Virus record (IMG/VR): IMGVR_UViG_3300027503_000002
DNA length: 64,000 bases
From: a virus
Reading direction: 5' to 3' (one strand)
In this document: positions 16,310 through 16,496 of the stretch, one piece after another
Numbering within the stretch: position 1 is the first letter of the stretch
How the letters are laid out: each line of letters opens with the position of its first letter
The notes under the pieces: model-generated
What the model saw: only the letters and a program-made list of their open reading frames with translations
Databases searched by the model: none
What the model was told of the DNA's origin: nothing
Made by a program: the position numbers and the translations under genes

Positions 16310-16328
16310 TAGTTTTTCCAAAGATTTT

Positions 16329-16363
16329 TGCGCGGAGCGCATAAAAAACCGAAGGTTTTTTAT
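16329..16363 (+). other. Two adjacent perfect inverted repeats with C(GNA)G triloops
   Basis: TGCGC-GGA-GCGCA (16329-16341) and ATAAAAAACC-GAA-GGTTTTTTAT (16341-16363). Confidence 0.85.
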
Positions 16364-16372
16364 ATATCGAAA

Positions 16373-16468
16373 GGGAGGGGGATAAAGGGATAGTGGGTTG
16401 GGGGATAATAGGGGGGGAGTCTGAGGGGGGGAAAGAAGGGGGAAGGGAGAAAGGGTTAAGGGGGAGGG
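16373..16468 (+). repeat. G-rich tract with 12 runs of 3 or more G (potential G-quadruplex)
   Basis: Direct count of G runs; only one C in 96 nt; non-coding; located at a divergent strand switch. Confidence 0.85.
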
Positions 16469-16482
16469 AAAACCAAAATCGG

Positions 16483-16489
16483 GTGTAAA
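16483..16489 (+). promoter_or_regulatory. GTGTAAA motif, putative late promoter
   Basis: Starts 14 nt before the ATG at 16497. Confidence 0.6.
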
Positions 16490-16496
16490 ATTTTAG

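What the first reader, a model, noticed from the sequence alone, without database searches (positions are those of the whole stretch)
16310..16496. Structured non-coding locus: two C(GNA)G DNA mini-hairpins followed by a 12-run G-quadruplex tract at a divergence point
Seen: the longest intergenic gap in the window holds hairpins with GGA and GAA triloops closed by C-G, then 96 nt with twelve G3-G7 runs and a single C. All lie on one strand of an otherwise AT-rich genome, between oppositely oriented promoters. Known: C(GNA)G triloops are exceptionally stable in ssDNA and are recognition elements in N4 virion RNAP promoters; G-rich strands stabilise R-loops and G4 structures at some origins. Inference: a structure-based replication origin, or a packaging or recombination signal, able to fold up to three G4 units.
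Basis: partly seen in the sequence, partly recalled or inferred. Interest (0 to 1): 0.75.

Follow-up and report, generated by a model that had tools for sequence, protein, structure and literature searches.

The report
Conserved G-run element, probable phage origin
A 140-base non-coding module of two abutting hairpins and twelve G-runs is real, single-copy and strongly conserved in an uncultured freshwater phage clade, and because its core words recur inside the replication-initiator genes of unrelated phages it is most likely part of the replication origin.

Summary
Window 16330-16468 carries two abutting hairpins, C(GGA)G and C(GAA)G, then twelve G3-G7 runs with one C. It is the only G-quadruplex motif in 64 kb. 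It is not a poly-G artefact: about 30 IMG/VR contigs keep the module upstream of the same dUTPase/sigma-factor/SSB operon, down to 63% dUTPase identity. The hairpin stems change by compensated substitutions. The core G5-ATAATA-G7-AGTCTGA-G7-AAAGAA-G5 is nearly invariant.

It occurs once per genome. In a 127-kb relative it lies 78 kb from the terminase gene. No N4-type RNA polymerase is encoded in the window.

The key new result concerns the two core words, GGGGGATAATAGGGGGG and GGGGGAGTCTGAGGGGG. They recur in dozens of unrelated phage contigs. At least 15 of these contexts lie inside or beside replication-initiator genes next to iterons, and the word is read in four different frames or strands, so conservation is at the DNA level.

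The best reading (about 0.5) is a replication-origin module. An AT-rich cruciform-capable palindrome would unwind, and the G tract would hold the site open or prime it by G4 or R-loop formation. GC skew shows nothing. The mechanism is inferred.

Earlier notes of this scan describe similar G-run elements beside phage replication genes on other DNA.

The parts
16304..16323 (-). Conserved blocks CGTCAAT (16304-16310) and TTTTTCCAAAG (16313-16323). On the minus strand they read as -35-like TTGGAA and TTGACG hexamers. This is the probable leftward promoter region for the dUTPase operon.
   Evidence: The columns are invariant or nearly invariant across 13 distinct clade sequences. The promoter reading is inference only, because the consensus scan reported no site here.
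16330..16340 (+). Hairpin 1: GCGC-GGA-GCGC, a purine triloop closed by C-G.
   Evidence: The loop varies among relatives (GGA, AAA, AAG, GAA, AGA). The outer pair changes G-C to A-T by double substitution in 2 of 9 sequences.
16341..16363 (+). Hairpin 2: a perfect AT-rich palindrome, ATAAAAAACC-GAA-GGTTTTTTAT, directly abutting hairpin 1. It is the candidate unwinding or cruciform element.
   Evidence: I6, 10 nt, 100% complementary. Six different stem sequences occur in the clade, all perfectly complementary over 10-12 bp. Compensatory changes occur at 5 of 14 pairs even in an imperfect MAFFT register.
16373..16468 (+). G tract: 12 runs of G3-G7, one C, purine-rich.
   Evidence: The tract is conserved in all full-length clade members. 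Nucleotide identity to the window is 0.68-0.77 where dUTPase DNA is 0.67-0.73 (seven relatives; the tract extraction failed for an eighth, L038). In the closest relative it is 0.99 against 0.84.
16400..16442 (+). Core: G5-ATAATA-G7-AGTCTGA-G7-AAAGAA-G5. It is nearly mirror-symmetric about C16421 and is predicted to form a 5-layer G4.
   Evidence: It is almost invariant in the clade. Its two words recur in unrelated phage origin-type contexts.
16483..16490 (+). GTGTAAAA, 6 nt before the ATG at 16497. It is a gene-start signal (probable -10-like promoter element) of the rightward gene and is not part of the G element.
   Evidence: It is kept in all clade members although the downstream gene differs. 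Its distance from the G tract varies from about 3 to 45 nt. The same heptamer lies 5-16 nt before 6-7 other start codons in the window.
14781..16274 (-). Leftward operon kept next to the element: dUTPase (15807-16274), a phage sigma-70-family sigma factor (15223-15810) and SSB (14781-15230).
   Evidence: Pfam and PHROG hits. The sigma factor is supported by weak PDB hits to ECF/SigA factors and by 858 homologues, several named sigma factor and some carrying PF04542. The synteny holds in 16-17 related loci.

Best explanation
The hairpin-plus-G-tract module is a DNA-level cis element of the phage's replication origin. It lies in the untranscribed spacer between two divergent transcription units, beside the SSB operon and 7-17 kb from the replisome genes (thymidylate synthase, RecA-like, DnaB, DnaG-like, DnaE).

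Proposed mechanism (inferred, not shown). Negative supercoiling from divergent transcription opens the perfect AT-rich palindrome (hairpin 2), which may extrude as a cruciform together with the abutting GC hairpin. The neighbouring strand-asymmetric G tract then folds on the displaced strand into up to three G-quadruplexes, or pairs its C-rich complement with a G-rich RNA as an R-loop. Either structure would hold the origin open and offer a structured, SSB-free site for helicase loading and priming.

The window encodes no O-like or DnaD-like initiator. Initiation may therefore rely on structure, transcription or recombination (a RecA-like protein is encoded), as at T4 oriF and oriG.

Shown here: the element is real, conserved, single-copy and structure-selected, and its core words are origin-associated elsewhere. 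Inferred: origin function in this phage and every mechanistic step.
For: 1. The element is under purifying selection. About 30 contigs carry the module, down to 63% dUTPase identity. Its identity is equal to or above that of the adjacent coding DNA and clearly above the neighbouring promoter segment.

2. Structure is selected. Six different hairpin-2 stems are all perfect over 10-12 bp. Hairpin 1 always abuts it with gap 0. The plus-strand loops are GNA, AAA or GNNA purine loops.

3. It is single-copy. There is one match in the 64-kb window and one in a 127-kb, 88%-complete relative. Two complete unrelated phages that carry the word also have one copy each.

4. GGGGGATAATAGGGGGG has 77 IMG/VR hits, against 9 and 3 for two composition-matched words. 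Even those 'control' hits are G tracts or iteron neighbours.

5. In unrelated families the word lies inside replication-initiator genes next to iterons:
- L136: HTH_36, phrog_270, E = 1e-41.
- L118: O-like.
- L123, L073, L100, L074, L144.
- L076: an O-like gene lies adjacent.
The word is read in three frames of the C-rich strand and on the G-rich strand, so conservation is at the DNA level. It always lies beyond the iterons in gene orientation, where lambda has its AT-rich unwinding tract (lambda layout from PMC7466680).

6. L135, a complete 66-kb phage, has the variant closest to the window's core, including AGTCTGA. At least 15 iterons follow it, inside the ORF just upstream of a primase/helicase and RecT/RecE.

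7. Other G-tract carriers:
- L138: six DnaA boxes follow within 150 nt.
- L133: a DNA primase gene lies directly upstream.
- L125: SSB is adjacent.
- L113: DnaB lies 3 kb downstream.

8. The second core word, GGGGGAGTCTGAGGGGG, again falls inside homologues of the same initiator families in 6 of 33 independent contexts. Pooled, that is 15 of 77 contexts, against about 2-5% expected for a random genome position (binomial p = 4e-11 to 6e-6).

9. Iteron-like exact repeats are enriched around the first word: 39% of 44 windows against 15% of 159 control windows, p = 0.001.

10. G4 potential is very high.
Against: - No experiment, coverage profile or marker-frequency data exist for this phage.
- Cumulative GC skew shows no switch at the element, in the window or in a 127-kb relative.
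- The window's element has no ordinary iterons and no overlapping or adjacent initiator gene, so it differs from the contexts that supply the comparative argument.
- Some carriers of the first word sit just upstream of terS genes (L092, L072, L110/L075) or just after terL in a T7-like layout (L065 family). The word is therefore not exclusive to origins.
- The exact-repeat (iteron) test is not significant for the second word: 26% against 24%.
- A G-rich tract is hard to melt, so it cannot itself be the unwinding element.
- The promoters bracketing the element are inferred only.
Confidence: 0.5

Rival explanations
1. The module is a transcriptional control region for the two divergent operons. 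It would be either a binding array for a phage or host regulator, or a supercoil-sensing structural switch (cruciform, H-DNA or G4). It would set the balance between the sigma-factor/SSB operon and the rightward genes, with no direct role in replication.
For: It lies exactly between divergent genes. One of them belongs to the operon that encodes a phage sigma factor. Conserved -35-like blocks flank it on the left and a recurrent gene-start motif, GTGTAAA, flanks it on the right. The non-G spacers (ATAATA, AGTCTGA, AAAGAA) are conserved as well as the runs, which fits sequence-specific recognition.
Against: The distance from the tract to the right-hand gene-start motif varies from 3 to 45 nt, and the right-hand gene itself is exchanged among relatives, while the tract stays constant. 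The same core words occur inside initiator genes of unrelated phages, where a divergent-promoter role is impossible. No regulator-type repeats other than the G runs are present.
Confidence: 0.17
2. The module is a packaging-initiation (pac) or other terminase recognition site. The many contigs that end inside the tract would then reflect real, imprecise DNA ends.
For: At least 13 clade contig ends fall inside the ~100-nt tract. In other phages the first word lies directly upstream of terS (L092, L072, L110/L075) or 22 nt after terL (L065 family). The element is single-copy.
Against: In the 127-kb relative the only terminase large-subunit match lies at 114,995-115,738, which is 78 kb from the element at 37,007. 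The contig ends scatter over about 60 nt and some carry junk tails, as expected for assembly failure in G-rich, low-coverage sequence. At least 20 contigs read straight through the tract. The terminase is T4-like (Terminase_6N), a type that usually needs no unique pac site (own knowledge).
Confidence: 0.08
3. The module is an RNA element. The tract would be transcribed rightward as a G-rich leader or small RNA whose RNA G-quadruplexes or hairpins control translation, stability or termination.
For: The plus-strand loops are the stable GNA and GNNA types. The G-rich strand is the sense strand of the rightward genes. The predicted RNA G4 energy is very favourable.
Against: No Rfam family matches, even at E <= 10. 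No conserved promoter upstream of the tract could be identified. The gene-start motif lies downstream of the tract. All stem pairs are Watson-Crick, with no G-U pairs to mark an RNA strand. The core words occur on either strand relative to the overlapping genes in other phages.
Confidence: 0.1
4. The module is a recombination or mosaic-junction sequence, or a nuclease-modulating (Chi-like) site. It would be a conserved homology anchor at which neighbouring gene cassettes are exchanged between co-infecting phages.
For: The gene immediately to the right differs among clade members while the element is constant. The phage encodes RecA-like and PD-(D/E)XK proteins.
Against: Gene exchange next to any conserved essential site is expected as a by-product. 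This reading does not explain the covarying hairpins, the strict strand asymmetry, or the occurrence inside initiator genes.
Confidence: 0.05
5. The tract is a poly-G sequencing or assembly artefact.
For: Two-colour Illumina chemistry produces G-rich artefacts (own knowledge), and many contigs break here.
Against: The tract is internal, with the same flanks on both sides, in at least 20 contigs from different samples. Its substitutions follow the phylogeny of the flanking genes.
Confidence: 0.01

Closest known systems
Lambda-type origin inside the initiator (O) gene: iterons plus an AT-rich, strand-asymmetric unwinding tract (PMC7466680)
   Same: In unrelated phages the window's core words lie in the inter-domain linker of O-like, DnaD-like or HTH_36 initiator genes, just beyond the iterons. 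That is where lambda has its AT-rich tract. The window's element also combines an AT-rich unwinding candidate with a purine-rich strand.
   Different: The window's element is intergenic, has no ordinary iterons and has no initiator gene nearby. The strand-asymmetric part is made of G5-G7 runs rather than an A-rich tract.
[quoted passage not shown]
   Same: Both have long G runs a few bases apart on one strand at a replication start region. Both are a plausible source of a stable G4 or R-loop that could prime DNA synthesis.
   Different: CSB II has two runs downstream of a defined promoter. Here there are twelve runs, no demonstrated promoter reads into them, and the polymerase system differs (DnaE, DnaB, DnaG).
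[quoted passage not shown]
   Same: Both are G4-forming, orientation-specific elements next to initiation sites that work without a sequence-specific initiator site.
   Different: OGREs act in eukaryotic chromatin. Nothing equivalent has been described for phages in the literature held here.
T4 oriF/oriG R-loop origins and ssDNA priming signals of phage G4 and phiX174 (own knowledge, not checked here)
   Same: The phage has its own transcription factor, a RecA-like protein and no dedicated initiator. Stable hairpins lie next to a possible priming site (CTG within AGTCTGA).
   Different: T4 unwinding elements are AT-rich and lie downstream of a mapped promoter. G4-type signals act on ssDNA genomes. 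The CTG is not conserved in the clade, whose variants are TATG and TCCG.
N4 virion-RNAP hairpin promoters
   Same: Both have short hairpins with purine triloops closed by C-G.
   Different: The window encodes no N4-type vRNAP. The element is single-copy, and hairpin 2 has a 10-12-bp AT stem.

Membership tests
Canonical intramolecular G-quadruplex motif (G>=3 N1-7, four or more runs) | Four or more G3+ runs separated by loops of 1-7 nt on one strand | tested here: met
   One 96-nt match at 16373-16468 with 12 runs, the only one in the window. G4Hunter mean is 2.02. The ViennaRNA gquad minimum free energy is -51 kcal/mol, with three units.
Canonical intramolecular G-quadruplex motif | Folding demonstrated in K+ by CD, DMS or polymerase stop | not testable with these tools
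   Only predictions were possible.
Iteron/initiator-type phage origin (lambda ori type) | Array of three or more direct repeats (iterons) that bind the initiator | tested here: not met
   The repeat search of 16200-16600 finds only two-copy G-rich repeats. Iterons are present beside the same words in other phages.
Iteron/initiator-type phage origin (lambda ori type) | Position inside or next to the gene of the cognate initiator | tested here: not met
   No O-like, DnaD-like or HTH_36 protein was found among about 30 window ORFs scanned. The neighbours are dUTPase, a sigma factor and SSB.
Iteron/initiator-type phage origin (lambda ori type) | Adjacent AT-rich unwinding element | tested here: met
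   A 23-nt palindrome at 16341-16363 with 4 G/C of 23 bases, extended by TATATAT. Whether it unwinds was not tested.
Replication origin in general | Mapped initiation (marker frequency, 2D gels, autonomous replication) | not testable with these tools
   No reads or experiments are available. GC skew is uninformative.
R-loop/G4-primed origin (CSB II or ColE1 type) | A promoter that transcribes into the G-rich non-template strand | tested here: inconclusive
   The consensus scan finds no promoter in the gap. -10-like AT hexamers (GATAAT within the core, TAAATT or TATTTT in the 3' arm of hairpin 2) are not uniformly conserved.
N4 virion-RNAP hairpin promoter | Cognate giant virion RNA polymerase encoded by the phage | tested here: not met
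   The largest window ORF (1887 aa) matches Phage-tail_3. No RNAP hit occurred in any scanned ORF. Only the 64-kb window was examined.
N4 virion-RNAP hairpin promoter | Several copies upstream of early genes | tested here: not met
   One copy in the window and one in a 127-kb relative.
pac/cos packaging site | Adjacency to the terminase genes | tested here: not met
   In the clade member G001 the Terminase_6N match is at 114,995-115,738 and the element at 37,007.
pac/cos packaging site | Reproducible DNA ends at the site | tested here: inconclusive
   Thirteen contig ends fall in the tract, but at scattered positions and some with junk tails. No read-level data were available.
Any Rfam RNA family | Match at or near the gathering score | tested here: not met
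   No match at gathering thresholds over the window. Only two chance-level hits at E 0.9-5.7 in 16200-16560.

The most novel reading that the evidence does not exclude
G-run modules of the form G5-7 / 6-7-nt spacer / G5-7, with recurring words GGGGGATAATAGGGGGG and GGGGGAGTCTGAGGGGG, are a widespread and so far undescribed class of replication-origin component of tailed phages across host phyla. They would work by nucleic-acid structure (G-quadruplex and/or R-loop on the displaced strand) rather than by binding a cognate initiator. The window's clade would carry an expanded, initiator-independent version: twelve runs plus a cruciform-capable palindrome. This would be a prokaryotic-virus counterpart of mitochondrial CSB II and metazoan OGRE/G4 origins.
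Probability: 0.3. Interest if true: 0.85.

Novelty: new variant of a known kind. Interest (0 to 1): 0.72.

Why it matters
Replication origins of most uncultured phages are unknown and cannot be predicted from sequence. If this element is an origin module, three things follow. It gives a sequence signature that marks origins in many unrelated phages. It provides a first natural case of G-quadruplex or R-loop-assisted initiation in bacterial viruses, directly testable with short oligonucleotides and plasmid assays. It also explains a practical problem: phage assemblies break at this site, which splits genomes in metagenomes.

Tried and rejected
- Rfam: no match at gathering thresholds and nothing credible at E <= 10.
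- tRNA/tmRNA scan: none found.
- The window's own genome is not held.
- BLAST of the element against isolated phages finds nothing, probably because the low-complexity filter masks it. The one DNA hit, cyanophage C48C1, concerns an unrelated small gene. The best DnaE relatives among isolates are below 30% identical, so there is no cultured relative and the host stays unknown.
- GC skew of the window and of the 127-kb relative is uninformative.
- Two 'control' 17-mers were not clean controls. Their few hits turned out to be the same kind of element.
- The iteron test on the second word was not significant.
- Six hits in one bacterial MAG (L139-L143, L145) are a REP-like palindromic repeat that contains the 17-mer by coincidence.
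- Sixty-five hits of the second word are one phage family in which it encodes ...NGGV-stop ahead of a terminator, also a coincidence.
- The N4 promoter analogy was rejected.
- SD-sponge idea: GGAGG is not conserved in relatives, and the phage's genes are SD-poor anyway.
- DnaG CTG priming site in AGTCTGA: the CTG is not conserved.
- MAFFT put hairpin 2 out of register, so the formal pair counts understate what the per-sequence table shows.
- No covariance model was built and no structure prediction was run, because they would not separate the hypotheses.

Full report
**1. What is there**

The 222-nt ORF-free gap 16275-16496 separates a leftward operon from a rightward membrane-like ORF at 16497-17171. 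The leftward operon holds:
- dUTPase, 15807-16274;
- a phage sigma-70-family sigma factor, 15223-15810;
- SSB, 14781-15230;
- a glycosyltransferase and Hsp20 further left.

The gap holds two perfect hairpins that abut without a spacer:
- GCGC-GGA-GCGC at 16330-16340;
- ATAAAAAACC-GAA-GGTTTTTTAT at 16341-16363.

As ssDNA they fold at -10.5 kcal/mol, z = -3.

From 16373 to 16468 lie twelve G3-G7 runs with a single C. This is the only G4 pattern in 64 kb. Its G4Hunter mean is 2.02, and the G4-aware folding energy is -51 kcal/mol against -2 without G4, with three units predicted.

The genome is about 41% GC. The window belongs to a large tailed phage with these genes:
- lambda-like tail genes;
- DnaB, a DnaG-like primase and DnaE Pol III alpha with separate PHP and exonuclease ORFs;
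- a RecA-like protein and a PD-(D/E)XK nuclease;
- a ClpB-like ATPase, RNR and thymidylate synthase.

No N4-type RNA polymerase and no O-like or DnaD-like initiator was found.

**2. Real and conserved**

A dUTPase-based locus search returned about 30 IMG/VR contigs (63-90% dUTPase identity) with the same module upstream of the gene. The gene to the right differs among them.

The core G5-ATAATA-G6/7-AG(AG)T(C/A)(T/C)GA(GA)-G6/7-AAAGAA-G5 is almost invariant.

Nucleotide identity to the window, for seven relatives (the tract extraction failed for an eighth, L038):

| Segment | Identity |
|---|---|
| G tract | 0.68-0.77 |
| Hairpins | 0.65-0.80 |
| dUTPase DNA | 0.67-0.73 |
| Promoter-side segment | 0.54-0.67 |

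In the closest relative the hairpins are 1.00 and the tract 0.99, against 0.84 for dUTPase.

Hairpin 2 occurs in six stem versions, all perfectly complementary over 10-12 bp. Hairpin 1 keeps a 3-4-bp GC stem, and its outer pair switches G-C to A-T. The plus-strand loops are GGA, GAA, GTA, AAA, AAG, AGA or GATA. An inverted repeat whose sequence drifts while its complementarity is kept argues for a folded structure (hairpin or cruciform) rather than a fixed protein site.

**3. Assembly breaks**

At least 13 contig ends of the clade fall inside the tract, at scattered positions and some with junk tails. At least 20 contigs read through it. I read this as assembly failure in G-rich sequence, not as physical termini. 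The same scatter rules out a cos site.

**4. Copy number and genome position**

- The word G5-W6-G5 occurs once in the 127-kb, 88%-complete relative G001, at 37,007. It is absent from three more distant large phages.
- In G001, SSB lies 1.2 kb away, DnaB 11 kb away and the terminase large subunit 78 kb away.
- Cumulative GC skew shows no turn at the element.

**5. The unexpected part**

*First core word.* GGGGGATAATAGGGGGG (16400-16416) has 77 exact hits in IMG/VR. Only about 19 are from the window's clade. Composition-matched words gave 9 and 3 hits, and those few were themselves G tracts or iteron neighbours.

About ten unrelated families continue with the same kind of G5-8 runs and A/G/T spacers. 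Examples are L135, L123, L125, L113, L134, L133 and L108/121.

A scan of bacterial genomes found further cases on MAG contigs labelled Nitrospira, Bacilli, Clostridiales and Desulfobacteraceae.

*Contexts of the first word:*
- It lies inside replication-initiator genes beside iterons in L136, L118, L123, L073, L100, L074 and L144.
- It lies next to an O-like gene in L076.
- In the complete phage L135 it lies inside an iteron-filled ORF just upstream of a primase/helicase, followed by RecT/RecE.
- It lies after a primase gene in L133.
- It lies beside SSB in L125 and upstream of DnaB in L113.
- It lies next to six DnaA boxes in L138.

Inside the initiator genes the word is read as YPPIIPP, PPYYPP, PPLLSPP or, on the other strand, GGIIGG. 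It always falls in the inter-domain linker, beyond the iterons. One DNA word in four reading contexts means selection acts on the DNA. The place corresponds to lambda's AT-rich unwinding tract (PMC7466680).

*Second core word.* GGGGGAGTCTGAGGGGG has more than 119 hits. After removing one family in which it is coding by coincidence (65 contigs), 33 other contexts remain, 31 of them with windows long enough for the repeat test. Six of the 33 again lie inside homologues of the same initiator families.

*Statistics:*
- Pooled, 15 of 77 independent contexts are in or at initiator genes, against an expected 2-5%.
- Exact 8-mer repeats are enriched near the first word (p = 0.001).
- They are not enriched near the second word.
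- A minority of first-word contexts lie just upstream of terS or after terL.

**6. Interpretation**

The most economical reading is that these G-run words are components of phage replication origins. The window's clade would carry an expanded, intergenic version combined with an AT-rich palindrome.

Two observations show that the tract is a separate module rather than part of the right-hand promoter:
- The conserved gene-start motif GTGTAAA lies downstream of the tract at a variable distance.
- The same motif recurs before other genes.

The conserved -35-like blocks on the left lie outside the hairpins. The module is therefore probably untranscribed spacer between divergent units, where negative supercoiling would favour cruciform and G4 extrusion. 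This last step, and any role in helicase loading or priming, is inference.

The nearest functional analogues are mitochondrial CSB II (PMC3488243) and metazoan OGRE/G4 origins (PMC6646384). I found no description of such an element in phages.

Earlier notes of this scan describe G-run elements beside helicase/primase genes of other prophages. They agree with this reading but are not independent evidence.

**7. Rivals**

- A transcriptional control or supercoil switch remains possible (0.17).
- An RNA leader or sRNA is possible (0.10).
- A pac site is unlikely for this clade (0.08).
- A recombination junction is probably a by-product (0.05).
- An artefact is excluded for practical purposes (0.01).

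**8. Verdict**

This is a new variant of a known kind, with a plausible wider significance.

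Noticed in passing
window 15223-15810 (-): The 195-aa ORF between dUTPase and SSB is a phage-encoded sigma-70-family sigma factor (regions 2 and 4). It has 858 homologues in aquatic metagenomes, several named sigma factor and a few with PF04542.
   Followed up: partly
window 16483, 17171, 23666, 33813, 37460, 42195 (+): GTGTAAA lies 5-16 nt before six or seven start codons, although the heptamer is not enriched overall (11 found, 8.3 expected). It is probably a phage promoter or gene-start signal, perhaps for the phage sigma factor, and would give very short leaders.
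   Followed up: partly
window, 49 gene starts: Only 7 of 49 genes have a GGAG, GAGG or AGGA motif within 21 nt upstream. The host therefore probably initiates translation largely without Shine-Dalgarno pairing (for example Bacteroidota-like). The host was not identified.
   Followed up: no
L001, L002/L094, L009-L011, L017, L019/L107, L026, L029-L031, L033, L112; also L075, L083, L110, L111, L117: Metagenomic contigs of this clade and of unrelated carriers often end inside the G tract at scattered positions. The tract is an assembly-break hotspot that splits phage genomes.
   Followed up: partly
right of the tract in L018, L020, L022, L034, L038 versus window 16497-17171: The first gene to the right of the element is a different small membrane-type ORF in different clade members, so the element marks a mosaic boundary. 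G-run lengths also differ among close relatives (G7, G8, G9).
   Followed up: no
L138:2330-2600 (Bacilli MAG contig, 4455 bp): The tract G6-ATAATA-G8-TAATA-G8-AAAGAA-G5 is followed within about 150 nt by six DnaA boxes: TTATCCACA twice, and TTTTCCACA or TGTGGAAAA four times. None of the contig's ORFs has a Pfam match.
   Followed up: partly
L139-L143, L145 (one MAG, six large contigs): A REP-like palindromic repeat (…CCTATCCCCCGTCCAC GGGGGATAATAGGGGGGTGGAGGGCCGGGGTGGGGG…) contains the same 17-mer. It is dispersed in at least six copies in one bacterial genome and is unrelated to the phage element.
   Followed up: no
L169, L172, L177 and about 60 more loci: In one large phage family GGGGGAGTCTGAGGGGG is the end of a gene (…LQELPNGGV-stop) running into a GC hairpin terminator. 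It is a coincidental carrier of the second core word.
   Followed up: no
L074, L083, L092, L100, L115, L123, L125, L128: PF01555 (N6/N4) DNA methylase genes lie within 0.1-3 kb of the first word in eight independent families. The second word contains GAGTC, a GANTC CcrM-type site. A possible methylation link was not tested.
   Followed up: no
window 5129-5308 (+), inside ORF 3329-5545: The densest C-run cluster of the window encodes a poly-Thr and (Ser-Pro)n linker in an Ig/Hoc-like tail protein. This is ordinary low-complexity coding sequence.
   Followed up: yes
window 25624-26034 (+): An HNH homing-endonuclease-like ORF lies between the RecA-like gene and DnaB.
   Followed up: no
L258 (IMGVR_UViG locus), upstream of its GGGGGAGTCTGAGGGGGGG: A 14-bp AT-rich hairpin with a C-GAA-G loop (ATGTTTATATTAATTTAC-GAA-GTAAATATAAACAT) lies 4 nt before the G5-AGTCTGA-G7 word. 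It mirrors the window's hairpin 2 in an otherwise different context.
   Followed up: no
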